DNA of 45,971 bases from Candidatus Woesearchaeota archaeon (GCA_964342845.1 CAYFGV010000003.1:1-45971), one strand, 5' to 3'. Counted from the stretch's first letter, positions 2,015-42,018 are shown. Program-made: numbers and translations. The notes: generated by a model from the sequence alone, not told the origin.

Positions 2015-2434
2015 TCATTTTTTATAAGATCTTTTAACAACAGCCCTTTCTTTAGGAATCTCATCAAGGCCAGCTTCTTGTTTTAAATAAATACAAATAG
2101 GCTCATAAATTTCACAAATTTCGATAAGTTCTTCCTCATACTCACTTTTATCATAAACCGCTAGTCTTTCTAACCTACTTAAACAAAGTTCAGATTTATT
2201 TGCAATATCTTTCCTCATAGCTCCAAGTTTATAATTTGACTTCCGTTTTTTTAAAATACTCTTCTTTAAAGCTTTATTAAATCCTACAATATCACCTTCA
2301 ATAATCTTAAAATAAATCCTAATCTCAGAAGTAACCCCTTTAGTTCTATCTCCAGAACAATAATCTAAAAAATTTAAACAATTGCTTAATTTCTTAAACT
2401 CTTCCAAACCCAATAAATATCTTAACTGAACCAC
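2015..2434 (-). CDS. hypothetical protein
   Basis: 139-aa ORF with no recognisable motif. The start codon is GTG (cac on the + strand at 2432-2434). Same strand as the neighbouring genes. Confidence 0.4.
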   Translation of the reverse strand: MVQLRYLLGLEEFKKLSNCLNFLDYCSGDRTKGVTSEIRIYFKIIEGDIVGFNKALKKSILKKRKSNYKLGAMRKDIANKSELCLSRLERLAVYDKSEYEEELIEICEIYEPICIYLKQEAGLDEIPKERAVVKRSYKK

Positions 2435-2470: not shown

Positions 2471-2833
2471 CTAAAAATACTTCTTCAAATCAGCTTCCTT
2501 CTTCTTAACAAAATCTTTAATCTTTCTCCACCCAAGAATCTCTAAATTCTTCTCTGAACCACAATTAGAACATTTCTTAGGAACAATTTCAGTTGTATTA
2601 CTCATCCACTCCCAGCCGCAATCCTTACACAACATACTATATCTTCCAGCACCATCAGAAAATTCTATCCTTCTCTCACGAAAAACAAACAAAACTACCT
2701 CAAAAATAATCACAAACCCAATCAACCCAAAAACACCCTTCAAAATAAAACTATCGACCTCACCAACAAAATAAAAACCAGCCAAACTAACTAAAAACAC
2801 CAAAATATAAACTAAAACTCGCTTTTCAGTCAT
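2471..2833 (-). CDS. membrane-anchored zinc-ribbon protein
   Basis: 120 aa. Two N-terminal hydrophobic helices (LVYILVFLVSLAGFYFV, GLIGFVIIFEVVLFVF), then CKDCGWEW...CSNCGS (CxxC-x21-CxxC). Confidence 0.6.
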   Translation of the reverse strand: MTEKRVLVYILVFLVSLAGFYFVGEVDSFILKGVFGLIGFVIIFEVVLFVFRERRIEFSDGAGRYSMLCKDCGWEWMSNTTEIVPKKCSNCGSEKNLEILGWRKIKDFVKKKEADLKKYF

Positions 2834-2930
2834 AAAAACAGTAATACTTTGAAATATATAAATTTAACCAATCTTTTTAAACACAATAAAAAACTAAGTT
2901 TTACTATTTGCAATGTTTTGCTAATGTAAC

Positions 2931-3500
2931 TCAATTAAAATCATGGCCTTGCTTTTCCAAAAGCATAAAAGGATATCCTCGATAGTCTTCTTCACCAACT
3001 TCAGCTCTAATTTCTTTTGTAATATTATATAAGTATTGCTTAGCCTCTTTTGGGTTATCAAACTTGGTTGTTAACTCAAGTTCTATAAATTCGCCCAATT
3101 CTTTAATTTTATCAACTGATATTTCAACACCTTTATACAGCCAGCTGGATCTTTCCTTTTTTACTTCAACCATTTTTTTAAAATCTAAACGTTCCAATAT
3201 TTTTTTAATAACAAGGCTATTGACAATTGCTTCAAACTCATCACAATAATCTGTCTTCTTTACATTCTCTGGATAAAAGTGTTTATAGTTTAAAACAATA
3301 CTCTTATCTGATTCTCTAACTCGTAACCATTGAAAAGGATAATCAGGTTCTAGAAAATTTTTATGCGTAGGAGTAAAGTATGTATCTACTTGGACTGAGT
3401 TTTCCACTTTTTTTTCTGCAAATTTATTTAGAAAATTAACTACTTGTTCAACATTTTTCAGTGGAAACTTTACTTCTATTTCTATATTATTATGTGCCAT
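2931..3500 (-). CDS. CYTH-domain protein (CyaB-type class IV adenylyl cyclase / triphosphate tunnel metalloenzyme family)
   Basis: 189 aa. N-terminal IEIEVKF (ExExK signature) and a later FIELEL acidic strand. Size is typical of stand-alone CYTH proteins. Confidence 0.8.
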   Translation of the reverse strand: MAHNNIEIEVKFPLKNVEQVVNFLNKFAEKKVENSVQVDTYFTPTHKNFLEPDYPFQWLRVRESDKSIVLNYKHFYPENVKKTDYCDEFEAIVNSLVIKKILERLDFKKMVEVKKERSSWLYKGVEISVDKIKELGEFIELELTTKFDNPKEAKQYLYNITKEIRAEVGEEDYRGYPFMLLEKQGHDFN

Positions 3501-3522
3501 ACCAATGGAATTAATTATACCT

Positions 3523-5337
3523 TTATATATTTTTGGATAAATCTGTAATAGATAGAATTTTTTTTATTTCTGCCATAAGGTTGAACCTCTTTTCTAGAAT
3601 CTTTTGCTCTCTTTCATTTGATAGGTTTTCTTCATTTTTTTTTGCAAGACTATTCGAGATTATATGGATATAGCTAAAATTTATTCCAGACTCTATAGCT
3701 CCTTTAGCAAAGTGTCCAATTTCAGGATCAACAAAATCAAAATTTTGATTCTTAGAAAACCATTTCTTATCTTCAAGTAATGTTGATGGACTAGTGTAAT
3801 GTGCACCTTTAACCAATATAGGGTTATCGACATCCTCAAAAAGACTATTCCAGTAAATTTTTTTACCCTTAACAAAACTAAATCTTCCTGTTGCGAGATG
3901 GATATTTGGAACTACTTTTTTCTTAAGACTACCTAACTTTCCAATATATACTAGAGATTTTACCCCCAACTCTTTAGCTAAATATTTTGTTACAACTTCA
4001 GAGATATCTCCCCAGAGACTATGTTTGCATCCTAGAAGGGTTAATTCATTAATGCCTATTTTTTCATGTTTATAAAGAAATGCACCCTTTCCTTTCCAAG
4101 AACCAGCACCTCCAAGATTTGTAAGACCAAAACCCATAATAACTATTTTTTTAGGCTGAATCGCACATAGATTAGATTTTAAAACTAAGAGGTTAAGTTC
4201 CTCTAAAGAAGGTTCCAAATAAAAAACGTGGTCATATTTTCTACTATTGATAGCTAAGTAAGTTGCTATCAATGAAGCATAGTGCATAACATAATCTTTC
4301 CCTGTTGGAACAAGAATAGTTAAGACATTGTCTTTTATTTTTGCGGTTGGCCGATGTAGGTTAAATAATTTATCATCTTTTTCGTTATCTCCGATAATTG
4401 CACTTCGATTATATTGGCCTTTAACTAAAATTTTTCTAAATTTTCTCTCTTTTATGAGGTGGTGCATTTTAGTTTCTAGATACTTATAAAGCTGATCTTC
4501 CATTGTATGGTTTAAAACATCTTTTATTACAACAGGATATTTTTCTTCTGAATTAGCAGATTGGTTTAAAATAAATATGTTGTGCTTCATCAATTTATAA
4601 ATTTCTTGGCTAAAATGATCAAAGAAATCTATGGGTTCTTTTGGTTTAGAATAAGGTTGGCCTTTTTCTAATAAAATTTTGCTACTTGCAGTTTTATACC
4701 CTGCACTACTATCATTTCTTTTAATAAATTGATATTTTGATAATTTCTCAAGCTCAAGATTTCCTGAATCAGAAAACCCTAAGAGGTGATGGGGCTTTGA
4801 ATAATCAATAATTCCTTTATTTATTAATATCTTAATAAGGTGTTCTCTATAAGTTATGTTTCCCTTGGGCAGGAAATTATTAAAAAGTTTTGAGACAGTA
4901 AAAGATAAACCTAGATTATCGATTGCAGGATTTCTAGAAAAGATTTCATAACATTTAATATATTCATCTAAATTACAACCTTGGGGAACTGCCATCAGCT
5001 TCATTTCTCCTTTATCTGGTAAAATTCTGATAAATTCTTCGGTTAGTTTGAGTGTTGCATTGTAATCATTAATTACGTCAGGCAAAATTACTTCGTCAGG
5101 TTTAACTAATGAGATACATTTTAATAGACTAGAAAGATTTACAGACTTTCCTAGATAGGGAGCAGAGTTATCTAAAATTATATATATTCCTTTTGCTTTA
5201 ATCTCTTTAACAATTGTAAGGTATTTTTTGCTTTCAAGAATTAAATGAGCCATAACAATACAAACCTGACTAGAATTATCTTCAATGAAATATCTTCGCA
5301 TAAAGTTTATTGGCATGATATTTAAAATTTTGATCAT
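3523..5337 (-). CDS. multidomain protein; C-terminal PNP/UDP-family nucleoside-phosphorylase-like domain, N-terminal alpha/beta (possibly TIM-barrel, transglycosylase-like) domain
   Basis: 604 aa, ATG start overlapping the upstream gene stop (ATGA). The C-terminal region (LLGCKHSLWGD...ELGVKSLVYIGKLGSL...FVDPEIGHFAKGAIESGINFSYIHIISN) matches the strand/loop pattern of the PNP_UDP_1 fold. The N-terminal 260 aa carry ILDNSA, ILPDV, AVPQG and HHLLG strand-end motifs. Confidence 0.7.
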   Translation of the reverse strand: MIKILNIMPINFMRRYFIEDNSSQVCIVMAHLILESKKYLTIVKEIKAKGIYIILDNSAPYLGKSVNLSSLLKCISLVKPDEVILPDVINDYNATLKLTEEFIRILPDKGEMKLMAVPQGCNLDEYIKCYEIFSRNPAIDNLGLSFTVSKLFNNFLPKGNITYREHLIKILINKGIIDYSKPHHLLGFSDSGNLELEKLSKYQFIKRNDSSAGYKTASSKILLEKGQPYSKPKEPIDFFDHFSQEIYKLMKHNIFILNQSANSEEKYPVVIKDVLNHTMEDQLYKYLETKMHHLIKERKFRKILVKGQYNRSAIIGDNEKDDKLFNLHRPTAKIKDNVLTILVPTGKDYVMHYASLIATYLAINSRKYDHVFYLEPSLEELNLLVLKSNLCAIQPKKIVIMGFGLTNLGGAGSWKGKGAFLYKHEKIGINELTLLGCKHSLWGDISEVVTKYLAKELGVKSLVYIGKLGSLKKKVVPNIHLATGRFSFVKGKKIYWNSLFEDVDNPILVKGAHYTSPSTLLEDKKWFSKNQNFDFVDPEIGHFAKGAIESGINFSYIHIISNSLAKKNEENLSNEREQKILEKRFNLMAEIKKILSITDLSKNI

Positions 5338-6146
5338 AACATGTTCTCCTTGACTGAATCAACAACTTTATCCAGAGATTGACTTGCATCAATTTTTACT
5401 AGTTGTACTCCTAATTTTTCTCTTGCTAACAGTACAACATCTAAATAAGTTTTAGCTTGTCTCTCAATTTCCTCATATGTCATAAAATCCCATATTCTAA
5501 ATTTCTTTTTTTGGAAAGAGATTCCTGAATATAAAACATCTAATGACCTATCAATAACAGCTTTTTTAATTTCGTCAGGGGCAGGAATCAATTCAGTTAG
5601 TTTAGAAACTTGTCCACTTATAGGTTCCCTTTCTTCAAGACTCCTACAAACCATTCTAGTATAAACAGTTATAGGATCCACTTCAAATAGAAAAATTTTA
5701 TCCAAGGATAGTTGACTAGTTAAAAATAACCCTTCTTCTAAGATTTCACTTAAATAAGGATTCTTTGAGTTCACTGAAGAAGCATATGCCCAAGACATTA
5801 AAGGTGTTCTGTCTAATAAAGAGACAGATCTCTTTTCATCAAATAGAATTTTTTGGTATTCTTTTACTTGTTGTCTAATGGCTAATCTAAAAATTTTATC
5901 TTTAAGAAAATCTCTTTCTTGTTCTACTGTAAGTCGTCCTTCCCTTCTAAGCCTTTCTCGATAATCTAAAATTTCTTTGAGTCTAAGCATTCTAGGATTG
6001 TCTCCAATTCCGCCGATTTTATTAATTCTTGGAAGATATTCTCTGTCCAAATACCAAAAATTTATTTCTTTAATTGCTGTGCTCTTTCCAGATGCGTTAA
6101 TTCCTTCAAAAGCATATGTTGCTGAGGGTTTGCCGAGTTTTTCCAT
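5334..6146 (-). CDS. thymidylate-kinase-family P-loop nucleotide kinase
   Basis: P-loop FEGINASGKST (compare dTMP kinase EGxDGxGKST), LLDRTPLMSWAYAS (DRy..S..AY region) and a lid-like VDPITVYTRMVCR. The ORF-track start at 6155 is TTG. The ATG at 6146 lies about 25-32 nt from a TATA-like element (6169-6182), so it is preferred. Confidence 0.7.
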   Translation of the reverse strand: MEKLGKPSATYAFEGINASGKSTAIKEINFWYLDREYLPRINKIGGIGDNPRMLRLKEILDYRERLRREGRLTVEQERDFLKDKIFRLAIRQQVKEYQKILFDEKRSVSLLDRTPLMSWAYASSVNSKNPYLSEILEEGLFLTSQLSLDKIFLFEVDPITVYTRMVCRSLEEREPISGQVSKLTELIPAPDEIKKAVIDRSLDVLYSGISFQKKKFRIWDFMTYEEIERQAKTYLDVVLLAREKLGVQLVKIDASQSLDKVVDSVKENML

Positions 6147-6263
6147 AATTTTCAAAACAATATCGTGTTTATATAATTTTCTAATGTAGTAACTTTATAG
6201 TAATTCTAACAAAGATTAGTTAATAAACTAAATAGCTGTTACAACAGATTTAACCAAAATCTA

Positions 6264-19255: not shown

Positions 19256-19295
19256 GTTGTCCACAAATACTTATTTATATTTTGTGTTGTCCACA
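19256..19295 (+). repeat. pair of GTTGTCCACA motifs spaced 30 nt (3' side of fic)
   Basis: Copies at 19256-19265 and 19286-19295. The spacer contains TTATTTATAT. The second copy lies inside the last fic codons. Confidence 0.8.
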
Positions 19296-20215
19296 ATCTC
19301 TTTATATGCTTCTTTAATTTTGTTAATAATAAAATTTAAAAAATCAGAAACATCGCCGTCACGTGCCTTTTCTAAACAATCAGTATATTTAATTCGTTCT
19401 CTAAGGTGAATACATATTGGGGGGAAGCCTTCTTTCACTAGCATAAAATTTAACAACAAACGTCCTGTTCTTCCATTTCCATCTATAAAAGGATGAATAG
19501 CAATAAAAAAATGATGGACGCATGTAGCTAAAATTACAGGATGATATTTATTATTTACGATCCAGCGAATCAAATTATTCATTTCATTATTAACTTCAAG
19601 AGGTTTTGTAGGTGTATGTTTTGATCCACCCATATAAACTTGAATCAATCTAAATTTCCCTGCTTGTTCTTCAAGAATATTAAAAGTGAGATTATAATGA
19701 ATCTGTTTAATAAATTTAGTTGAAATTTTTCCTTTATATTCTTTCATAAATTCGTATGTTTTTCGAGTATTTACAACTTCATATATTTCCCTCAATTCTT
19801 TTCCTTTAGGAGAAATTTTGTCTTCTAAAATATGTGCGGTTTCCTTTAAAGTAAGTGTTGAACCCTCGATAGCATTGGTATTAAAAGTAAAATTAATCAA
19901 ATGTTGCTTTTCAATGACTTTGTATTCCACTGGAGAAAGTTTTTTGATTATTTTCTGATATTCTTTTTTAATTTCTTCGAGTTCCTTTTCTGTAATCTTA
20001 TCTAGTTGGCAAACTTTCCTAATTTTTTTCACTTCTTTCACTTTTTCATGAAGGCCTTGTTTTGCTTGTTCGGCAAGTTTATTTAATTTTTCCCCAGATA
20101 TTTCTCCCTTCCCTAATAATTTTCTAATTTTCTTAAACTTTTCCCCAATCCTAATTGTTTGAGTAAGATAATAAAAATTTTTATTACCACTTTTAATTTT
20201 TTCAATATAAACCAT
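19271..20215 (-). CDS. Fic/DOC family protein (AMPylase-type)
   Basis: 314 aa. Canonical Fic motif HPFIDGNGRTGR. The extra about 100-aa N-terminal region is basic. Confidence 0.9.
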   Translation of the reverse strand: MVYIEKIKSGNKNFYYLTQTIRIGEKFKKIRKLLGKGEISGEKLNKLAEQAKQGLHEKVKEVKKIRKVCQLDKITEKELEEIKKEYQKIIKKLSPVEYKVIEKQHLINFTFNTNAIEGSTLTLKETAHILEDKISPKGKELREIYEVVNTRKTYEFMKEYKGKISTKFIKQIHYNLTFNILEEQAGKFRLIQVYMGGSKHTPTKPLEVNNEMNNLIRWIVNNKYHPVILATCVHHFFIAIHPFIDGNGRTGRLLLNFMLVKEGFPPICIHLRERIKYTDCLEKARDGDVSDFLNFIINKIKEAYKEIVDNTKYK

Positions 20216-27907: not shown

Positions 27908-28990
27908 ATGGCTTTATCTGATAAAAATTTAACTGAAATCAATAAATGGACAGAATATGAATCAATAGATAGTTGTTTCTCAAGAGAAGACCCCCTTAAA
28001 AAAGGATTAATGCCAAACTTTAGACAAGCTCCGCCTCTTCCAATTGATCCACTTCCAAAAGAACTTAATCCCTCTGGTTTTGACCTTAGTGTTGGATACT
28101 TCATTGCTGAATCAGACACCTTACACACCTCTTTAAAAGAACGTGATTTTTTTAGAATGGGATTAACAGAGTTAAAACCAGGACAAACATTTACTTTAAA
28201 CCCTAACAAATTCGGAGAAAAAATTTATTATATTTCAAGCTATGAAAAATTAAAACTACCAAGAGAATTAGAAGCTATTATAGATGCACGTAGTACAACA
28301 GGCAGACTGGGATGTATGTGTCATCAAGTTGGCGAACTAATGGATGGAGAACAAATAATTGCAGTTCAACCATTTGCATTTCCAATAACAATAACAAGTG
28401 GAAAAAGTAGTCTTGCCCAAGCAATAATAAGGTATGCTTCAACAGAATTTATTGATTATAAAACACTATGTGAAAACTCTGAAAAAATTGCACTTCTCCT
28501 AAAAGAAAGAGACATTTTCAAAGGGTCCTTAAGACCAGAAGGTTTAGTGATGACATTCTCAAGCCATTTAGTTTATCGTGCAAAACCTTGTGAAGAACCA
28601 ATCAATATTGATGCAGTTAATGAATTAGATCCAAACCAATATTTTCAACTTATAGAAGGAGACTGTAGTTTTACCATGAATCCACTAACCTTTTACTTAG
28701 CTGGAACAAGAGAGGCAATCCAACTAGGAAATATCTGTGGTAGAATTAGTCGTGAAAGCCATATCAGCGGAACTGGTCTATGGAGCCATTTTGCAGGATT
28801 TGTACAACCAGGATTTAGTGGGGGAATTACACTAGAATGTTATTCCTTAGGAAAAAGAGTCATCAAAAATAGAGAACCTGCAGGCACTGTTATGTTTGAT
28901 AAAGTTGAAAGTGATATTGAAAATTCTTATCAAGGGTCTTATCAACACCAAAAAGTTCCGAAATTACCTAAGATGTTTAAAGAAAATTAA
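27908..28990 (+). CDS. dCTP deaminase-family protein, long two-domain (DCD) type
   Basis: 360 aa. NPSGFDLSVG and ARSTTGRLGCMCH resemble the dUTPase/dCTP-deaminase beta-barrel motifs (SxDLxxG; xKSSxGRLG). The length fits the about 360-aa 2'-deoxycytidine 5'-triphosphate deaminase family. Confidence 0.6.
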   Translation: MALSDKNLTEINKWTEYESIDSCFSREDPLKKGLMPNFRQAPPLPIDPLPKELNPSGFDLSVGYFIAESDTLHTSLKERDFFRMGLTELKPGQTFTLNPNKFGEKIYYISSYEKLKLPRELEAIIDARSTTGRLGCMCHQVGELMDGEQIIAVQPFAFPITITSGKSSLAQAIIRYASTEFIDYKTLCENSEKIALLLKERDIFKGSLRPEGLVMTFSSHLVYRAKPCEEPINIDAVNELDPNQYFQLIEGDCSFTMNPLTFYLAGTREAIQLGNICGRISRESHISGTGLWSHFAGFVQPGFSGGITLECYSLGKRVIKNREPAGTVMFDKVESDIENSYQGSYQHQKVPKLPKMFKEN

Positions 28991-29744: not shown

Positions 29745-30338
29745 CTATTTCAAAACTTTCCCTGTCTCCAAAAACCAAAGATATAAATCTAACTCAGCTA
29801 AATTCAAATCTAATTTCTTAGAAATCTTTCTTAAAATATCTTCAATATCTAAATATTTCTTCTTAGTTAATGTTCTAGGATTTTCAATAATAGAATGTTT
29901 AACTAATAAATCAACAATATGAAAATCTATTATAGCCACATCTTTGTAACCAGTATTTCTCAAAAAATGAGAACTTTCCTTATAACCCAAACCTTTAACA
30001 TTTTTAACTAAATCTTCTCTAAACTCAAATCCATTCTTAAACCTTTTAAATTCATAATCTCTAGCTTTAACAATAAAACTACTTCTTAATTTAGGAAACC
30101 TATAACCTAATCTTCTTAATTCTTTCTCTAATTTTTCTTCAGAATAACTAAGAAAACCGTCCTTAATTTCATTTTGAATCTTAATAGCTCTTTCTGCATT
30201 GAAATTAGCAGTTAAAATACAAAAACTTAACTCACTGAAAATATCTTTAACACTTTCAAATTCTTTGATTCTTTTACCAACTAAAACTTTAATTTCAGAA
30301 TTTTTTAAATCTTCAACATTTTTAACTAATTCTTGCAT
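29745..30338 (-). CDS. ogg: N-glycosylase/DNA lyase (archaeal Ogg2-type 8-oxoguanine glycosylase)
   Basis: 197 aa. HhH-GPD region VKGLGYKESSHFLRNTGYKDVAIIDFHI with the catalytic Lys and Asp contexts. Confidence 0.8.
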   Translation of the reverse strand: MQELVKNVEDLKNSEIKVLVGKRIKEFESVKDIFSELSFCILTANFNAERAIKIQNEIKDGFLSYSEEKLEKELRRLGYRFPKLRSSFIVKARDYEFKRFKNGFEFREDLVKNVKGLGYKESSHFLRNTGYKDVAIIDFHIVDLLVKHSIIENPRTLTKKKYLDIEDILRKISKKLDLNLAELDLYLWFLETGKVLK

Positions 30339-37346: not shown

Positions 37347-37706
37347 ATGGCAAAAGATAATTTACCAAAGTTGCCTCCTTTGGAGGAAGTTTTAGGTGCT
37401 GTAACAGGAGAGTCTGGAATAAGTAAGGATATTGGGAATTATCTTGTTGAGGCTATTAGAAATTTATCAGATGCTGAAAGAAAAGAGTTAGCTAAAGCAT
37501 TGAATCTTGCTGAAAATAAATCATATGTTAAAGAACCGGTTGTTATAGACAAACACTGTGCAAAAGGAGATTGTGATATACAGTTTAGTTCTATTGAGGG
37601 GAATAGAACTGTTATTTGTAAATATCTTAGATACGGTGATTGTCGTTATGGCGTTTCCGAGGACTTTCTTTATGTGGTTTGTAATTTTAGTAGTACTTGG
37701 AGATAA
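37347..37706 (+). CDS. Cys-rich small protein, paralogue A (orphan)
   Basis: 119 aa. MAKDNLPKLPPLEEVLGAVTGESG head, NLAENKSYV box and five Cys in the C-terminal 50 aa. Tandem duplicate of the next gene. Confidence 0.6.
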   Translation: MAKDNLPKLPPLEEVLGAVTGESGISKDIGNYLVEAIRNLSDAERKELAKALNLAENKSYVKEPVVIDKHCAKGDCDIQFSSIEGNRTVICKYLRYGDCRYGVSEDFLYVVCNFSSTWR

Positions 37707-37710
37707 TAAA

Positions 37711-38103
37711 ATGGCAAAAGATAATTTACCAAAGTTGCCTCCTTTGGAGGATGTTTTAGGTGCTGTAACAGGAAAGTCTGGAACAAGTAAGAAAAATGCT
37801 TCAGGCGACCTTCTTAAAATTATTCAGAATTTATCGCCTGCTGATAAAAAGAAATTAGCTAAGATTTTGAATCTTGCTGAAAATAAATCATATGTTGAGG
37901 TGCCGGCTCTTATAGAGAAGTATTGTGCAAAAGGGGGCTGTGATATACAACTGGTTTTTAGTGAGGGAGAGAAGGGCATTGTCTGTAGACATTATATAGA
38001 GGATAATGTAGGATATGGTAACTTTATGCTTTGCGGGATAGATCGGCATGAGGAGAATGGAGGATATTGTGCATTTGTTAAGTCTTGGCTTGGATATATT
38101 TGA
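37711..38103 (+). CDS. Cys-rich small protein, paralogue B (orphan)
   Basis: 130 aa from the ATG at 37711 (MAKDNLPKLPPLEDVLGAVTGKSG). The ORF-track start at 37558 is an out-of-context extension across gene A. GGAG lies 8 nt upstream of the ATG. Confidence 0.6.
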   Translation: MAKDNLPKLPPLEDVLGAVTGKSGTSKKNASGDLLKIIQNLSPADKKKLAKILNLAENKSYVEVPALIEKYCAKGGCDIQLVFSEGEKGIVCRHYIEDNVGYGNFMLCGIDRHEENGGYCAFVKSWLGYI

Positions 38104-38105
38104 AA

Positions 38106-39179
38106 ATGGCAAATATAAATAATCAATTAATGGAAATTGGTAAACCTGAAATTAGGAGTGTAGCTTTGCGGAATACAACTCCGTTAGATGCTTTATATGA
38201 TTTAAATCCAGAGATTGCTACTTTAGCTTATGCACATAGAGAGAAATTATTGTCTCCACAGATTCTTCCCTATGTAGCGAGATTTAGAGAGTTACAATCA
38301 GATGAGAGGATTGCGACTATTGGTGCGTTAGTTGAAAAATTAAAGATTGAGACTGGTGCAGAGGTTGCTAAGTACGGTGTTGACGGTCAGGTGGAAATGA
38401 CAAGACTTTCTGAAGATGGTTTAACTACTAGAACAGGTATTGTTCAGGATGGTTTGACTAAGCGGACAAAGATGGAATCTGAGGTTAAGTTTGATTACCA
38501 GAAAAAGATGCACGAGCTTGGAATGCACCATCTTGATAGTCAGGTTGAAATGACAAGATTTTCTGAGGACGGTTTGACTAGACGAGAGGAGATTAGGATG
38601 AATGGGTTGAGGGATCTTCAAAAATTAAAATATGATGCAAATGTTAGGATGTTGCAGAGCCACATAGACGGTCAAAAGTATTTATCTGATAACCAACTTA
38701 AGGCTACGCATGTTGAAGCAGAAGCATATAAACAAGCTATGCAGACTAGAGAGTCCATTAGGGCAGAGACTGAAAGGAGAGTTTCTAAAGATAGGCTTGA
38801 AGAAAAAATAAAGACTGCTGCAATAGAATTTGTAGGAAAGATAAGAGAAGCTGAGATAATGAGAGAGTCAAATCGTACTAAGGTTATGTCAGAAGTGACG
38901 CAGGTTTATATTGAAAAACAAGCAGAACTTTATTTAGCGACAATTGAATCAGAATTGAGGACAGAGGCGATGCAAGGAGAGATTGAAAAAGAGAGAATAA
39001 AAGCAGGTACAGAACGTTATTCTAGTTTTCAAGAAACAATTAGGAATGTTATTGATAATGCAGCTGAAATATTAAAACAAATCCCTAACCTATCCAAAGA
39101 ATCAAATATTAGATTTATAGTAAAAACAGGAGAGCATCCTATAGAGATAAGATATACAAAACACGAAGATAATGATTAA
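38106..39179 (+). CDS. repeat-containing helical protein (orphan)
   Basis: 357 aa from the ATG at 38106 (MANINNQ), 2 nt after the gene B stop. Internal 51-aa-period repeat QVEMTR(L/F)SEDGLT(T/R)R. E/R/K-rich predicted helical C-terminal half. Confidence 0.6.
   Translation: MANINNQLMEIGKPEIRSVALRNTTPLDALYDLNPEIATLAYAHREKLLSPQILPYVARFRELQSDERIATIGALVEKLKIETGAEVAKYGVDGQVEMTRLSEDGLTTRTGIVQDGLTKRTKMESEVKFDYQKKMHELGMHHLDSQVEMTRFSEDGLTRREEIRMNGLRDLQKLKYDANVRMLQSHIDGQKYLSDNQLKATHVEAEAYKQAMQTRESIRAETERRVSKDRLEEKIKTAAIEFVGKIREAEIMRESNRTKVMSEVTQVYIEKQAELYLATIESELRTEAMQGEIEKERIKAGTERYSSFQETIRNVIDNAAEILKQIPNLSKESNIRFIVKTGEHPIEIRYTKHEDND
38386..38432 (+). repeat. intragenic repeat unit 1
   Basis: GTCAGGTGGAAATGACAAGACTTTCTGAAGATGGTTTAACTACTAGA. 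A similar unit recurs at 38539-38585, a 153-nt period. Confidence 0.7.
38539..38585 (+). repeat. intragenic repeat unit 2
   Basis: GTCAGGTTGAAATGACAAGATTTTCTGAGGACGGTTTGACTAGACGA. A further DGLTKR-coding fragment lies at about 38449-38466. Confidence 0.7.
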
Positions 39180-39196
39180 AAAATATTCAAAATAAT

Positions 39197-40222
39197 TTAT
39201 TTATTATTTTTAGACATATAGTTAATTTTATTATATTCTTTCTTAACTTCCGCTAAAATAGAATCTATTAATTTATTTAAATCACCAATTTCTTTTAATT
39301 TTAGTTCTAAACCACCTACTATTTGTAGTGCTTTATCCCTTTCTTCCTTTATGTCTATTGAATCTAGTTTATCTCTAATTTCATCTACAGTTTTGAAACC
39401 CTCAAAATATGTCTGTAAGCAATTGATAATGTCTTCAGATAATTCTTCAATTTTTTTTATTATTTTTTCATTTTTAGCAGAAACACCACCATTTTGATTT
39501 TTTATTTTTTCAAGATTATTATTAATTGTTATTTCTACTTTTCTAAGATTTCTTAACCTAATTAATTCATCTTCTATTTTCTTATCTAAGTTATTTAAAT
39601 GATTCTTAAATGATTTTATCTGTTCCCCTTTGATATCTTTCTTCAATTCATTAGCAAGTTTTAACTCATCTTTATTCATTTTTTTTGAAATTTTAACCAT
39701 TTCATGCCCTTTCTTAGCTTCTTCATAACCTTTCTTAGCCCCTTCAAGCCCTGCTTTAGATTCATACCTCTCTTTTGAAGCCTTACTAACAGCTTTAGAA
39801 GCCTTCCTAATACTTGTTCCTAAAGCCGAATAAATACCAAGACCTAATAACACAAGCAATAATAAAATAGATATCCAAGCAACATCATACAACAAACCTT
39901 GCAACCACATAGCAAAAGGAGTTGCCCATGCAATTAAGAAAGACAAAACAATAGAAAAAACAAGTGCAGCATTCTTATGTTCAGCATCTTTAAATATCTT
40001 AATCTGCCTAGATAAAGGTTGTATTACAGCATATAATAAAGCAGTAACTAATAAAATATACCCTAAACTAGCTGAATAATAACTATAACCAAAAGAACCA
40101 TACCATAAACCATCCCAAACACTATAAAAGAAATAAGAAAAAGGATTTTCATAATAAGCAGCATAAACTTGTTTAACTAACAACAAAAATCCAAACAAAA
40201 ACATTAACAGCCTCTTTTTCAT
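39197..40222 (-). CDS. signal-peptide / 3-TM / long coiled-coil membrane protein (orphan)
   Basis: 341 aa. MKKRLLMFLFGFLLLVKQVYA signal-like N-terminus, an aromatic-rich (Y/W/F) ecto segment, three hydrophobic helices, then about 190 aa of K/E-rich heptad-like sequence. Confidence 0.65.
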   Translation of the reverse strand: MKKRLLMFLFGFLLLVKQVYAAYYENPFSYFFYSVWDGLWYGSFGYSYYSASLGYILLVTALLYAVIQPLSRQIKIFKDAEHKNAALVFSIVLSFLIAWATPFAMWLQGLLYDVAWISILLLLVLLGLGIYSALGTSIRKASKAVSKASKERYESKAGLEGAKKGYEEAKKGHEMVKISKKMNKDELKLANELKKDIKGEQIKSFKNHLNNLDKKIEDELIRLRNLRKVEITINNNLEKIKNQNGGVSAKNEKIIKKIEELSEDIINCLQTYFEGFKTVDEIRDKLDSIDIKEERDKALQIVGGLELKLKEIGDLNKLIDSILAEVKKEYNKINYMSKNNK

Positions 40223-40259
40223 AATTTAAACAAATAAAAAAAGAAATATATAAAGGTTT

Positions 40260-41195
40260 CTATGATGGCCTTCTTTTTTCTATCACCTTAGACACTTTTT
40301 CGATAATAGCTCTTTGTCGACTAATTTCATCGAGAATATTTGATAGTTCTTCTGTATCTTTTACTTTTCTTAACTTATCATGAGCAGTAACTATTGCTCC
40401 AAGAGCACCATCAGCTTCTTTTTCAAATTCATCCCAATCCTTTCCTCTATAGCCTGTTAAACCCACTCTTTTTAATTGCTGTATGTTATCTCTCATTTTT
40501 TCCAATACTTTCTCTTGGGATTCAAGATTTTCACCAAGTTTTGCAATATATGAATTAATTTTTGCTACATCCCTCTTTTTTATGGCACTTCTCAAACCTC
40601 TTATTGTTGATTTCTCTTGGCTAGCAAGAACTCTTTCAGTATGTGCCTCTCTTATAGCCTGGGATTGTTTGCCTGCACTTTCTCTAGCTTTGGCAACATT
40701 TAATCCGACATCACCAAATTTCTTGCCTAATCCAGCAACCAACATGTATATTATAAGTCCACCACCACCAAATATTGCTATATATCCTAAAATACCTCCA
40801 AAAATTCCAACCCATTCAAATAATGGAACTAATATACCACCTAATCCTGCAAAAACAACTAAACTAAAAGATACAATTAGACCTAAAATCGTAAAAGACC
40901 ATTTTCGTTCCTCTGCAAAACTCCTAAGTACATCTACTCTAGAACTTACAAGTAACAAAACAAGAAAAAGAATAACAGTCATAACTAAAGCCATTCCCCA
41001 AGTTAAACTGTCACCAGACATTCCCCCTAATTGTACTGTTTTGTTTAAATCAAAAAGACCTTTTAACCATCCTGAAGTAACATCCCAAACCTCTCCTGGT
41101 GTTTTTGGCCCAGCCTCTACAACCCCAGAAAACAAACCAATAAAAAACAAACTAAAAACAATCAAACAAAATATCTTTTTATTATCCATTATCAT
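40260..41195 (-). CDS. signal-peptide / 3-TM / coiled-coil membrane protein (orphan)
   Basis: 311 aa. Signal-like IFCLIVFSLFFIGLFSGVVEA, three Gly-rich TM helices, then an about 150-aa helical charged tail. Same architecture as the neighbouring gene. Confidence 0.65.
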   Translation of the reverse strand: MIMDNKKIFCLIVFSLFFIGLFSGVVEAGPKTPGEVWDVTSGWLKGLFDLNKTVQLGGMSGDSLTWGMALVMTVILFLVLLLVSSRVDVLRSFAEERKWSFTILGLIVSFSLVVFAGLGGILVPLFEWVGIFGGILGYIAIFGGGGLIIYMLVAGLGKKFGDVGLNVAKARESAGKQSQAIREAHTERVLASQEKSTIRGLRSAIKKRDVAKINSYIAKLGENLESQEKVLEKMRDNIQQLKRVGLTGYRGKDWDEFEKEADGALGAIVTAHDKLRKVKDTEELSNILDEISRQRAIIEKVSKVIEKRRPS

Positions 41196-41259: not shown

Positions 41260-42018
41260 ATGCTAAATTTCCTAAAAAAACCAAAACTACCAAGCTCTTT
41301 TGACATAGTTGGCTCTATCTTAATTATAAACGAAAAAATACAAAAACAAAAAAAAGTAGCAAAACTACTCTTAAAAAAACATAAAAACATAAAAACTATT
41401 CTAGTAAAAACAAAACAATATCAAGGAAAATACAGAACACCTACCTTAAAACATCTAAAAGGAATAAAAACAAAAATAACCTACCATAGAGAATCCAAAT
41501 GCATCTTCCATCTAAATGTAGAAAAATGCTACTTCTCTGTAAGATCTGGCTCAGAAAGACTAAGAATAGCTAAACAAGTAAAACCAAATGAAAACATACT
41601 AACTTTATTTTCTGGAGTAGCACCATTCCCATTAATAATAGCAAAAAACGCAAAACCAAAACACATAGATGCAATAGAAATCAACCCAATAGCCCACAAA
41701 TACGCAAAAGAAAACTTAAAAATAAACAAAACAACTAATATCACTCTATACAACCAAGATGTTAAAAAAATCCTACCTAACTTAAAAACCTACAACAGAA
41801 TAATAATGCCATTACCAAAAGAAGCACACTTATACTTAAAAGAAGCTAAAAAACACCTAAAACCAAAAGGAACCATACATCTATACTTATTCGAAAGAGA
41901 AGAAAACTTCAAAAACTTAATAAACAAATACAAAAAACAATTCAAAACAGTAAAATTAACAAAAGCAGGAAAATACGCCCCATCAACCTACAGAATCTGC
42001 TTAGATTTAAAGGCCTAA
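41260..42018 (+). CDS. Met-10+/Trm5-family tRNA methyltransferase
   Basis: 252 aa. SFDIVGSILIINE (the yDivGdiaii motif of Trm5/Taw2) and a SAM-binding region ILTLFSGVAPFPLIIAK...AIEINP. Confidence 0.7.
   Translation: MLNFLKKPKLPSSFDIVGSILIINEKIQKQKKVAKLLLKKHKNIKTILVKTKQYQGKYRTPTLKHLKGIKTKITYHRESKCIFHLNVEKCYFSVRSGSERLRIAKQVKPNENILTLFSGVAPFPLIIAKNAKPKHIDAIEINPIAHKYAKENLKINKTTNITLYNQDVKKILPNLKTYNRIIMPLPKEAHLYLKEAKKHLKPKGTIHLYLFEREENFKNLINKYKKQFKTVKLTKAGKYAPSTYRICLDLKA

What the first reader, a model, noticed from the sequence alone, without database searches (positions are those of the whole stretch)
2931..6146. Compact operon of three nucleotide-handling proteins: dTMP-kinase-like, 604-aa phosphorylase-like fusion, CYTH
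Three co-directional genes are packed with a 4-nt overlap (ATGA at 5334-5337) and a 22-nt gap. They are a thymidylate-kinase-family P-loop kinase, a large fusion protein with a PNP/UDP-type nucleoside-phosphorylase-like C-terminus, and a CYTH triphosphate-tunnel enzyme. All three families act on nucleosides, nucleotides or triphosphates. I do not know this combination as a described pathway. Possible roles:
- a salvage route, since DPANN archaea generally lack de novo nucleotide synthesis;
- synthesis or turnover of a modified nucleotide;
- a nucleotide second-messenger module, given that CYTH includes the CyaB cyclases.

A membrane zinc-ribbon protein and a further hypothetical follow on the same strand.
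Basis: partly seen in the sequence, partly recalled or inferred. Interest (0 to 1): 0.65.

Follow-up and report, generated by a model that had tools for sequence, protein, structure and literature searches.

The report
Archaeal 7-deazaguanine base-exchange operon

Summary
Three co-directional minus-strand genes lie at 5334-6146, 3523-5337 and 2931-3500, with the ATGA overlap and the 22-nt gap as described.

- **Gene 1** is a thymidylate-kinase-fold P-loop protein.
- **Gene 3** is a bona fide CYTH enzyme.
- **Gene 2** was only half read. Residues 265-604 belong to an unnamed but widespread family with the PNP/MTAN fold. Residues 1-264 are a TGT-fold transglycosylase of the DpdA3 family, the phage enzymes tied to complete replacement of G by 7-deazaguanines.

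The kinase / DpdA3-like / PNP-like / CYTH order recurs in seven other sequence-distinct DPANN loci, fused or split, and their flanks share nothing with the window's.

The same parts recur in 55-56 actinomycete loci as QueD-QueE-FolE-DpdA3-like-PNP-like-TMPK-like-DUF2797-methyltransferase, followed by a NUDIX gene (Pfam-tested in one locus, relatives in 49 loci). In DpdA3 phages the transglycosylase sits beside a small P-loop protein, and in two of them an NTP pyrophosphatase lies in the same cluster.

My best reading (about 0.4) is a salvage-fed guanine-to-7-deazaguanine replacement module that works through the nucleotide pool. Post-replicative insertion into DNA is a close rival. The function is inferred, not shown. 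I rate it a new variant of a known kind, with fairly high interest.

The parts
5334..6146 (-). Thymidylate-kinase-fold P-loop kinase-like protein (270 aa). It has the P-loop EGINASGKST, an invariant DRTP motif (D112-R113) and invariant R164/R168. It carries two helical insertions relative to the 190-210-aa TMPKs.
   Evidence: ORF. Sequence matches are weak: Thymidylate_kin/TIGR00041. The AF2 model has pLDDT 91.7. The top 50 Foldseek PDB hits are all thymidylate kinases, TMt up to 0.76. The family has only 17 members, found on the same contigs as the fusion homologues.
4546..5337 (-). N-terminal domain of the 604-aa protein (residues 1-264): a DpdA3-type TGT-fold (TIM-barrel) transglycosylase. 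The residues D56-N57, D87 and D209 are invariant across DPANN, phage and actinomycete homologues.
   Evidence: The domain also occurs as a stand-alone ~260-aa protein. tblastn hits the immuto_2-6A 'DNA guanine transglycosylase' (7e-11) and phiST CGPG_00065, the DpdA3 founder (3e-9). An HMM built from DPANN sequences only hits them at 1e-29 and 1e-20. The top BFVD Foldseek hit is phiST M4SLA5 (E 3.6e-16, TMt 0.86), and phage 'queuine tRNA-ribosyltransferase' proteins also appear. Alignment.
3523..4545 (-). C-terminal domain of the 604-aa protein (residues 265-604): a member of an unnamed family of ~340 aa with a PNP/MTAN nucleoside-phosphorylase/nucleosidase fold plus a conserved ~100-aa N-terminal subdomain. 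E539 in VDPEIG is invariant. The position that is Asp in the family's 'SD' motif is Asn here (HIISNS).
   Evidence: Weak PNP_UDP_1 match. Foldseek PDB hits to MTAN, PNP and futalosine hydrolase at E ~1e-9, TMt 0.6-0.67. In the 1.84-billion representative library the two-domain profile gave thousands of hits, and most of the top 150 are C-domain proteins. 79 GTDB loci carry it. There is no Pfam or NCBIfam model for it. Conserved residues.
2931..3500 (-). CYTH / triphosphate-tunnel metalloenzyme (189 aa) with the N-terminal ExExK motif (E7, E9, K11).
   Evidence: Pfam CYTH 4.7e-19 and TIGR00318 75 bits, above cutoff. The closest solved structures are P. furiosus 1yem and the S. acidocaldarius triphosphatase SaTTM 7ns8. 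The motif was read from the sequence.
6168..6176 (-). TATA-box-like element (TTATATAAA) about 30 nt upstream of the kinase ATG. It is the probable promoter of the operon, with a short or absent leader.
   Evidence: Read directly from the sequence. Inference only.
2886..2895 (-). T-run (TTTTTT) about 40 nt after the CYTH stop codon. It is a probable archaeal terminator, so the operon would end here.
   Evidence: Read directly from the sequence. Inference only.

Best explanation
The operon encodes a module that replaces guanine with a 7-deazaguanine-type base. It belongs to the DpdA3 type and works through the nucleotide pool.

Gene 2 joins two enzymes. The N-terminal DpdA3-like TIM-barrel transglycosylase swaps guanine for the incoming base on a deoxyribose/ribose phosphate acceptor. 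I favour (d)GMP as the acceptor; DNA is the alternative. The C-terminal PNP/MTAN-fold domain makes or breaks an N-glycosidic bond of a nucleoside or nucleotide. Most likely it frees or recycles the base that the fused transglycosylase uses, which matters because these DPANN loci carry no FolE/QueD/QueE and must salvage the base.

The CYTH enzyme strips the triphosphate from (d)NTPs to feed monophosphates into the pathway. MazG plays this part in DpdA3 phages and NUDIX in the actinomycete operon.

The TMPK-fold kinase, translationally coupled to gene 2, re-phosphorylates the modified (d)NMP so that it can be used again.

What is shown: the folds, the family memberships, the conserved catalytic-type residues, the gene fusions and the synteny. 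What is inferred: the substrates, the direction of each step, and the identity of the base.
For: 1. The N-domain is a DpdA3 homologue by sequence and by fold. It keeps the residues that are invariant across the family.
2. The N- and C-domains occur fused or as overlapping adjacent genes in DPANN. They are adjacent genes in 55 of 56 actinomycete loci.
3. In actinomycetes the pair sits directly after QueD-QueE-FolE, the 7-carboxy-7-deazaguanine pathway. It is followed by a TMPK-like kinase, DUF2797, a methyltransferase and a NUDIX hydrolase. This ties the module to 7-deazaguanine.
4. The C-domain is fused to CYTH (P0081, 3e-14) or to NUDIX (P0013-19, P0070, P0128) in other organisms. It is also next to CYTH in Firmicutes, Tenericutes and CPR.
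5. In DpdA3 phages that replace all G, the DpdA3 gene lies among the Que genes together with an NTP pyrophosphatase and a P-loop kinase-like gene (phiST, immuto_2-6A). In BSTP12 and MA9V-3 a small P-loop gene directly precedes it. So 'NTP phosphohydrolase + DpdA3 + kinase' recurs in three unrelated lineages. That is the logic of pre-replicative pathways such as T4 gp56/gp42/gp1 (general knowledge).
6. DpdA3-like proteins are small barrels with no conserved Cys cluster, and most are acidic (pI 4.7-5.6 in phages and actinomycetes). This is weakly more in keeping with a small-molecule acceptor than with DNA.
7. The kinase keeps its P-loop, DR motif and lid arginines.
Against: - No 7-deazaguanine synthesis gene, transporter or TGT lies in the 46-kb window or in the DPANN flanks. 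The base is therefore assumed, not seen.
- DpdA3 itself has never been assayed. Its authors propose post-replicative insertion into DNA (PMC10516641).
- 7-Deazapurine nucleosides are intrinsically poor substrates for PNP/MTAN-type cleavage, because there is no N7 to protonate (general knowledge).
- The DpdA3-associated C-domains have Asn where the other subfamily has Asp. The C-domain may therefore act on guanine nucleotides rather than on the modified base.
- The C-domain family also occurs without any DpdA-like partner. In one locus it sits beside a TIR-like/P-loop protein and an Mrr nuclease.
- The DPANN and actinomycete kinases are not demonstrably orthologous (hhalign probability 39%, P-loop region only).
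- An Exo_endo_phos gene lies next to the operon in three distinct DPANN loci. This hints at DNA-level chemistry.
Confidence: 0.4

Rival explanations
1. The same family, but acting after replication. The DpdA3-like domain exchanges guanine for a 7-deazaguanine directly in double-stranded DNA, as proposed for phage DpdA3 and shown for bacterial DpdA. The P-loop protein is not a nucleotide kinase; it is the ATP-hydrolysing helper, playing the part of DpdB. The PNP-like domain and CYTH only liberate the base from salvaged nucleotides. The result is an epigenetic or self-marking DNA modification in the archaeon.
For: - The published view is that all DpdA subfamilies act after replication (PMC10516641).
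- DpdA needs the DpdB ATPase (PMC10164549 abstract).
- A P-loop gene is translationally coupled to DpdA3-like genes in phages and in DPANN.
- An Exo_endo_phos (AP-endonuclease family) gene abuts the operon in L001, L002/L010 and L009.
- Two DPANN loci lie among toxin-antitoxin genes, as defence or modification islands often do.
Against: - No restriction partner, DpdB or DpdC-like gene is conserved with the operon.
- The helper has the full thymidylate-kinase fold and the NMP-site DR motif.
- The recurrent NTP phosphohydrolase (CYTH, NUDIX or MazG) has no obvious role in a DNA-level reaction.
- DpdA3-like proteins lack the Zn subdomain, and most are acidic.
Confidence: 0.28
2. A small-molecule pathway. 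The module builds or tailors a free 7-deazapurine nucleoside or nucleotide, such as an antimetabolite, a cadeguomycin-like compound or a signalling nucleotide. The transglycosylase attaches the base to ribose phosphate by exchange with GMP. The kinase, NUDIX/CYTH and PNP-like enzymes adjust the phosphorylation state and recycle material.
For: - The actinomycete version looks like a compact biosynthetic cluster, with CDG synthesis genes, a small-molecule-type methyltransferase and a NUDIX hydrolase.
- Known 7-deazapurine nucleoside clusters lack nucleic-acid insertion enzymes and use tailoring enzymes instead (bioRxiv 10.64898/2026.04.15.718813).
Against: - The DPANN operon has no synthesis or tailoring genes, and it sits in tiny genomes that are not known for secondary metabolism.
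- The closest characterised relatives of the N-domain are all in phages whose DNA carries the modification.
Confidence: 0.12
3. Ordinary purine nucleoside/nucleotide salvage for a host-dependent archaeon. The transglycosylase domain has been recruited as a general purine base-exchange enzyme, and no modified base is involved.
For: - All four domains act on nucleosides or nucleotides.
- There are no Que genes in the DPANN loci.
- A second kinase/NUDIX/His_Phos_1 gene group (plus PNP in L002) lies nearby in two loci.
- The PNP-like family is frequent in host-dependent lineages.
Against: - Outside DPANN, every relative of the N-domain whose genomic context was examined lies next to 7-deazaguanine synthesis genes.
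- The operon is rare among DPANN. Only about 20 close homologue clusters were found among 5.8 billion, which is unlike a core salvage route.
Confidence: 0.1
4. An anti-virus defence or signalling module. CYTH makes a nucleotide signal, as CyaB does, and the PNP-like domain is a nucleotide-depleting effector like the ATP nucleosidases of CBASS and Detocs.
For: - TIGR00318 'class IV adenylate cyclase' scores above its cutoff.
- One C-domain homologue sits beside a protein with a TIR-like N-terminus and a P-loop, an Exo_endo_phos gene and an Mrr nuclease.
- Toxin-antitoxin genes flank two DPANN loci.
Against: - None of the five proteins hits PADLOC.
- The closest solved CYTH relatives are archaeal triphosphatase-type TTMs.
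- This reading does not explain the fused DpdA3-like domain or the link to Que genes.
- The window locus sits among housekeeping genes.
Confidence: 0.05

Closest known systems
[quoted passage not shown] 2023, PMC10516641)
   Same: The N-domain is a clear sequence and fold homologue. In the phages, too, the transglycosylase lies close to a P-loop kinase-like gene, and in phiST and immuto_2-6A an NTP phosphohydrolase lies in the same cluster.
   Different: - This one is cellular (archaeal chromosome), not viral.
- It is fused to a PNP/MTAN-fold domain that has no relative in the phage or IMG/VR collections.
- It uses CYTH instead of MazG.
- It has no FolE/QueD/QueE nearby.
Bacterial Dpd system (DpdA-DpdB-DpdC modification plus DpdD-K restriction; PMC10164549)
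   Same: It uses a TGT-superfamily transglycosylase together with an NTP-using partner to place a 7-deazaguanine.
   Different: - There is no ParB-like DpdB, no DpdC and no restriction genes.
- The DpdA3 branch is a minimal barrel with no conserved Cys (Zn) cluster.
- The partner has a thymidylate-kinase fold.
Pre-replicative nucleotide-replacement pathways (T4 dCTPase gp56 / dCMP hydroxymethylase gp42 / dNMP kinase gp1; Z-genome MazZ-PurZ-DatZ)
   Same: The logic is the same three steps: a triphosphate hydrolase makes the dNMP, an enzyme alters the base at the monophosphate level, and a dedicated kinase re-phosphorylates it. This comparison rests on general knowledge and on the gene content seen.
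   Different: The base would be swapped whole by a TGT-type enzyme rather than chemically modified or built de novo. This has not been demonstrated for any DpdA.
PNP / MTAN / futalosine hydrolase / AMP nucleosidase superfamily (PF01048)
   Same: It shares the alpha/beta fold. It also shares the ribose-binding Glu motif (VDPEIG, invariant E539) and an 'S-D/N' motif near the C-terminus.
   Different: - It scores below the Pfam threshold.
- Even a 92-sequence profile finds no PDB sequence hit.
- It has an extra, highly conserved ~100-aa N-terminal subdomain.
- In every DpdA3-associated member the Asp is Asn.
Queuine/queuosine salvage glycosidases (bacterial QueK, eukaryotic QNG1/DUF2419)
   Same: The proposed role is the same: freeing a 7-deazaguanine base from a nucleoside or nucleotide so that a TGT-type enzyme can use it (general knowledge).
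   Different: The folds are unrelated (IUNH and DUF2419 against PNP/MTAN). The activity here is purely inferred.

Membership tests
DpdA3 subfamily of the TGT/DpdA superfamily | Significant sequence similarity to the founding members (phiST CGPG_00065, immuto_2-6A DpdA) | tested here: met
   tblastn gives 3e-9 and 7e-11. An HMM built from DPANN sequences only gives 1e-20 and 1e-29. The locus tag was confirmed.
DpdA3 subfamily of the TGT/DpdA superfamily | TGT-type TIM-barrel fold | tested here: met
   The AF2 model has pLDDT 92. Foldseek against BFVD gives phiST M4SLA5 on top (TMt 0.86, E 3.6e-16), and phage queuine tRNA-ribosyltransferases also appear. No solved TGT/DpdA structure was among the 50 best PDB matches listed, all of which match the C-domain.
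DpdA3 subfamily of the TGT/DpdA superfamily | Conserved acidic active-site residues (the two Asp of TGT-type enzymes) | tested here: inconclusive
   D56-N57, D87 and D209 are invariant across DPANN, phage and actinomycete homologues. Their equivalence to TGT Asp102/Asp280 is inferred from motif position, not from a structural superposition.
DpdA3 subfamily of the TGT/DpdA superfamily | Genomic association with 7-deazaguanine synthesis genes (FolE, QueD, QueE, +/-QueC) | tested here: not met
   None lies in the 46-kb window or in the DPANN flanks. The feature is met for the actinomycete and phage homologues.
DpdA3 subfamily of the TGT/DpdA superfamily | Guanine/7-deazaguanine exchange activity | not testable with these tools
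   A biochemical assay is needed. Even phage DpdA3 has not been assayed (PMC10516641).
Thymidylate kinase (PF02223 / TIGR00041) | Score above the curated family threshold | tested here: not met
   15.2 bits against 27, and 19.1 against 83.25.
Thymidylate kinase (PF02223 / TIGR00041) | Fold, P-loop, DR(Y/H)-type motif and lid arginines | tested here: met
   The top 50 Foldseek PDB hits are all TMPK.
PNP_UDP_1 nucleoside phosphorylase superfamily (PF01048) | Score above the Pfam gathering threshold | tested here: not met
   14.1 bits against 25.1. Some distant family members do pass (P0120 at 36.8 bits).
PNP_UDP_1 nucleoside phosphorylase superfamily (PF01048) | Fold | tested here: met
   Foldseek gives probability 1.0 and TMt 0.6-0.67 to MTAN, PNP and futalosine hydrolase.
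PNP_UDP_1 nucleoside phosphorylase superfamily (PF01048) | Catalytic Asp of the bacterial PNP/MTAN 'SD' motif | tested here: not met
   The window has HIISNS. Asn is found in all DpdA3-associated members, and Asp in the others. The equivalence of the position is inferred from the Pfam-aligned stretch.
CYTH / triphosphate tunnel metalloenzymes (PF01928) | Family score above threshold and the ExExK motif | tested here: met
   69.3 bits against 23.2. The sequence reads IEIEVK at residues 6-11.
Class IV adenylate cyclase CyaB (TIGR00318) | Cyclase rather than triphosphatase activity | not testable with these tools
   The model score passes (75 against 57.95). However, the nearest solved relatives are archaeal TTMs, including the triphosphatase SaTTM.
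Bacterial Dpd restriction-modification island | DpdB (ParB-like), DpdC and DpdD-K genes next to the transglycosylase | tested here: not met
   No such domains are found in the window's neighbours or in the DPANN loci.
Known anti-phage defence systems (PADLOC-DB) | Any component matching a defence-system model | tested here: not met
   None of the five proteins gave a hit.

The most novel reading that the evidence does not exclude
DpdA3-type transglycosylases are not DNA enzymes. They are mononucleotide base-exchange enzymes that convert (d)GMP plus a 7-deazaguanine into the 7-deaza-(d)NMP. If so, complete G replacement in DpdA3 phages, and these cellular operons, run on a T4-like pre-replicative scheme of triphosphatase, base swap and dedicated kinase.

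In addition, the unnamed PNP-fold family would be the missing prokaryotic N-glycosidase that recycles 7-deazapurine nucleotides. DPANN archaea and many streptomycetes would then carry, or be able to make, 7-deazaguanine deoxynucleotides of their own.
Probability: 0.3. Interest if true: 0.85.

Novelty: new variant of a known kind. Interest (0 to 1): 0.72.

Why it matters
In the papers found here, 7-deazaguanine in DNA is described only for phages, archaeal viruses and the bacterial Dpd islands.

This locus shows that the least understood transglycosylase branch, DpdA3, the one linked to 100% replacement of G, also exists in cells. It is found in ultra-small DPANN archaea and, as a conserved 9-11-gene operon, in dozens of Streptomyces and related species. 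In those cells it always travels with a kinase, a nucleotide phosphohydrolase and a previously unnamed nucleosidase-fold protein.

That gene company is hard to square with the current assumption that all DpdA enzymes work on finished DNA. It therefore makes a real open question directly testable: is the modification pre- or post-replicative for DpdA3? The Streptomyces version can be tested in culturable organisms.

The finding also gives a first functional handle on several families:
- a PNP-fold family with no Pfam or NCBIfam model (the two-domain profile, mostly through this domain, drew thousands of hits in the representative library);
- DUF2797;
- a rare thymidylate-kinase-like family.

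Finally, it suggests how genome-reduced symbionts might obtain and use a modified base that they cannot make.

Tried and rejected
- **Sequence searches of the fusion against PDB.** I tried the single sequence, a 17-sequence profile and a 92-sequence C-domain profile. None gave a hit, so the fold assignments rest on AF2 plus Foldseek.
- **Scan with alignment A2.** The search for related loci failed with the two-domain alignment because it had no conserved stretch. I repeated it with the C-domain alignment A4.
- **The ~300-aa gene upstream of the C-domain in Firmicutes.** I suspected a divergent DpdA. It is not: hmmsearch and hhalign are negative, and it is DUF2797.
- **Bacillus phage annotations.** Labels such as 'NadR' and 'polynucleotide kinase' suggested a DpdA3-kinase fusion. 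It is a 262-aa DpdA3-like protein with a separate P-loop gene upstream.
- **Orthology of the DPANN and actinomycete kinases.** Not supported.
- **C-domain or DPANN-kinase homologues in phage or IMG/VR collections.** None found.
- **The 269-aa gene beside the C-domain in L100.** It is not DpdA3-like.
- **PADLOC and NCBIfam.** PADLOC hits none of the five proteins. NCBIfam has no model for the DpdA3-like and C-domain families and matches the kinase only below its cutoff.
- **Literature searches.** I searched for DpdA3, DUF2797, deazaguanine plus DPANN, deazaguanine plus kinase/pyrophosphohydrolase, and queuosine salvage plus nucleoside phosphorylase. No description of this module turned up.
- **Things I could not do.** I could not fetch the rest of the DPANN genomes to look for Que or arcTGT genes. 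I could not obtain model coordinates to inspect the inter-domain geometry or the electrostatics.

Full report
**1. The observation**

The three ORFs are real and lie on the minus strand.
- A 270-aa protein at 5334-6146. The ATG at 6146 is supported by the alignment of homologues.
- A 604-aa protein at 3523-5337.
- A 189-aa protein at 2931-3500.

The first two overlap in ATGA at 5334-5337. The second and third are separated by 22 nt. A TATA-like element (TTATATAAA) lies about 30 nt upstream of the first ATG. A T-run follows the CYTH stop, and the next gene (2471-2833) has its own TATA-like element. The transcription unit is therefore most likely the trio alone.

The window as a whole is an ordinary AT-rich (about 30% GC) archaeal chromosome segment. 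It carries SerRS, PolX, PolB, CDC48, the DnaK operon, FEN1, a PAC2 family protein, Trm5/Taw2 and HerA. The closest homologues of the trio come from MAGs labelled Pacearchaeota, Woesearchaeota and Nanoarchaeota. The DPANN attribution is therefore reasonable.

**2. What the proteins are**

*CYTH.* The assignment is solid: Pfam 4.7e-19, TIGR00318 above its cutoff, and an ExExK motif. The nearest solved relatives are archaeal TTMs, including the S. acidocaldarius triphosphatase.

*The kinase-like protein.* It matches thymidylate kinase only weakly by sequence. Its AF2 model (pLDDT 91.7) matches only thymidylate kinases in the PDB top 50. It keeps the P-loop, an invariant DR motif and lid arginines. 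Its family is tiny, with 17 clusters, and those clusters lie on the same contigs as homologues of the 604-aa protein.

*The 604-aa protein.* It is two proteins in one. Homologues fall into four classes:
- full-length proteins;
- proteins of about 335 aa covering residues 265-604;
- proteins of about 260 aa covering residues 1-263;
- NUDIX plus C-domain fusions.

The AF2 model is confident: pLDDT 92.1, pTM 0.89.

*The C-domain.* It has the PNP/MTAN fold and an extra conserved N-terminal subdomain. No Pfam, NCBIfam or PDB sequence match reaches significance.

*The N-domain.* It is a member of the DpdA3 branch of the TGT superfamily.
- One stand-alone homologue (P0027) sits in a phage contig directly after QueC-QueD-ThyX-QueE-FolE.
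- tblastn against phages hits the annotated DNA guanine transglycosylase of Flavobacterium phage immuto_2-6A. It also hits Cellulophaga phage phiST CGPG_00065, the founding DpdA3 of Cui et al. 2023.
- An HMM built from DPANN sequences only finds these at 1e-29 and 1e-20.
- The best structural match among viral proteins is the phiST protein (TMt 0.86).
- D56-N57, D87 and D209 are invariant across DPANN, phage and actinomycete members.

**3. Conservation**

The order kinase / N-domain / C-domain / CYTH recurs in these loci:
- L001, a 909-kb contig;
- L002, which is the same contig as L010;
- L003/L004;
- L009;
- L095/L096;
- a 5.6-kb JGI contig.

Matching contig lengths indicate at least a 4.5-kb contig as well. 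In these loci the N- and C-domains are either fused or encoded by overlapping genes.

Homologues of the window's flanking genes are absent from these loci. The flanks also differ from locus to locus. One fused copy (L012) lacks the kinase and CYTH genes nearby.

**4. The wider family gives the functional clue**

A profile search of 1.84 billion representatives found thousands of relatives. Most of those in the top 150 are stand-alone C-domain proteins, and only two clusters hold the full fusion. A GTDB scan returned 80 loci.

In 56 actinomycete loci, mostly Streptomyces, the C-domain gene is preceded by a DpdA3-like gene in 55 cases. That gene is in turn preceded by QueD, QueE and FolE in 54-55 cases. 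The C-domain gene is followed by:
- a thymidylate-kinase-family gene (Pfam 1.7e-8, above cutoff);
- DUF2797;
- a class-I methyltransferase;
- a NUDIX hydrolase;
- two unknown genes.

The module is therefore embedded in a 7-carboxy-7-deazaguanine synthesis operon in another domain of life.

Elsewhere the C-domain is fused to CYTH (P0081) or to NUDIX. It also lies next to CYTH and DUF2797 in Firmicutes and Tenericutes, and next to CYTH in CPR.

In the DpdA3 phages the transglycosylase gene lies among Que genes together with other nucleotide genes:
- phiST has a MazG-type NTP pyrophosphatase and a small P-loop protein.
- immuto_2-6A has an NTP pyrophosphohydrolase, a phosphoribosyltransferase and a 'thymidylate kinase'.
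- BSTP12 and MA9V-3 have a P-loop gene immediately upstream.

**5. Interpretation**

The recurrent set is a DpdA3-like transglycosylase, a P-loop (d)NMP-kinase-fold protein and an NTP phosphohydrolase (CYTH, NUDIX or MazG). It appears in phages, actinomycetes and DPANN. Cells add the PNP-fold protein, and no relative of it was found in the phage or IMG/VR collections.

This is the gene logic of pre-replicative nucleotide-replacement pathways (general knowledge: T4 gp56/gp42/gp1; Z-genome MazZ/PurZ). I therefore favour a nucleotide-pool mechanism with four steps:
1. CYTH produces the monophosphate.
2. The DpdA3-like domain exchanges guanine for a 7-deazaguanine.
3. The kinase re-phosphorylates the product.
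4. The fused PNP-fold domain supplies or recycles the base. The DPANN loci need this because they lack FolE/QueD/QueE.

Weak supporting points are that DpdA3-like proteins are minimal barrels with no conserved Cys cluster, and that most are acidic.

A noteworthy correlate concerns the C-domain. Every DpdA3-associated C-domain has Asn at the position where the non-associated subfamily has Asp, in the C-terminal 'S-D/N' motif. In PNPs this position contacts N7/O6 of the purine (general knowledge). The two subfamilies therefore probably differ in base specificity.

**6. Caveats and rivals**

Nothing here is biochemically shown.
- DpdA3 has never been assayed, and its discoverers assume post-replicative insertion.
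- A P-loop partner could be an ATPase helper like DpdB.
- An Exo_endo_phos gene abuts the operon in three distinct DPANN loci.
- Two loci sit among toxin-antitoxin genes.

The DNA-level reading is therefore a close rival (0.28 against 0.40).

7-Deazapurine glycosides are chemically poor PNP substrates, so the C-domain may instead handle guanine nucleotides. The C-domain family also occurs without a DpdA-like partner. In one locus it sits beside a protein with a TIR-like N-terminus and a P-loop, and an Mrr nuclease. The DPANN and actinomycete kinases are not demonstrably orthologous.

Three readings remain possible but less likely: a small-molecule (7-deazapurine nucleoside) pathway, plain salvage, and defence or signalling. 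There is no PADLOC hit.

**7. Comparison and novelty**

The locus is a member of the DpdA3 family by homology and fold. It fails the family's usual genomic hallmark of adjacent Que genes. It is not a Dpd island, because DpdB, DpdC and DpdD-K are absent.

In the held literature, none of the papers retrieved describes any of the following:
- cellular DpdA3 homologues;
- this PNP-fold family;
- the fusion;
- the actinomycete operon.

A 2026 genome-mining preprint on actinomycete 7-deazapurine clusters mentions neither kinases nor phosphorylases.

I classify the finding as a new variant of a known kind, namely 7-deazaguanine modification systems. It has above-average interest because it bears on whether DpdA3 acts before or after replication, and because the Streptomyces version is experimentally tractable.

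Noticed in passing
L027 3109-9579; L040 3279-12022 (and about 55 other actinomycete loci, L019-L088): A conserved actinomycete operon: QueD-QueE-FolE-DpdA3-like-PNP-fold-TMPK-like-DUF2797-methyltransferase-NUDIX, plus two unknown genes (235 and 428 aa). No QueC was seen. I found it described nowhere in the searched literature.
   Followed up: partly
L023, L025, L054, L071, L078, L080 (Firmicutes/Tenericutes): A different conserved trio: DUF2797 (about 300 aa, Cys-rich), then the PNP-fold gene, then a convergent CYTH gene, with no DpdA-like gene. This links DUF2797 to the same family in two phyla.
   Followed up: partly
L090 2712-10381 (Patescibacteria contig JAMCZT010000013.1): The only bacterial member found of the DPANN-type kinase family. 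It sits beside a radical-SAM gene, a TruD-like gene, two CYTH genes, a weak Mom-like gene, a Ham1-like NTP pyrophosphatase and another P-loop kinase. This may be a second nucleotide-modification toolkit.
   Followed up: no
L100 114-6107 / L101: A PNP-fold family member flanked by three genes: a 781-aa protein with a TIR-like N-terminus and a P-loop, an Exo_endo_phos gene and an Mrr_cat nuclease. This is a defence-island-like context.
   Followed up: partly
L002 12307-16226; L095 6263-8083: A second nucleotide-handling gene group lies a few kb from the operon in two DPANN loci. It comprises His_Phos_1, an SKI/cytidylate-kinase-like P-loop protein and NUDIX, plus a canonical PNP_UDP_1 in L002.
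   Followed up: no
L001 6249-7079; L002 10413-11240; L009 7621-8448: An Exo_endo_phos (AP-endonuclease/phosphatase family) gene lies immediately next to the operon in three distinct DPANN loci, on either side. None lies next to the window's copy.
   Followed up: partly
window 42007-44568 (-): A HerA-type (DUF87) ATPase gene interrupted by an intein with a LAGLIDADG homing-endonuclease domain.
   Followed up: no
window 37558-41195: Four consecutive ORFs (181, 364, 341 and 311 aa) with no Pfam match at E <= 0.001.
   Followed up: no
window 27908-28990 (+) and 29745-30338 (-): A 360-aa protein with two dCTP-deaminase-like domains lies near an 8-oxoguanine DNA glycosylase (Ogg-HhH). Both are further nucleotide or DNA-base enzymes in the window, with no evident link to the operon.
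   Followed up: no
window 19271-20215 (-): A Fic/DOC-domain protein (314 aa) lies between the topoisomerase gene and a RadA/RadB-like gene.
   Followed up: no
window 2471-2833 (-) and 2015-2434 (-): The membrane zinc-ribbon protein and the 139-aa hypothetical downstream of the trio have no homologue in any related locus, and no family match above a curated threshold. They are probably unrelated to the operon.
   Followed up: yes
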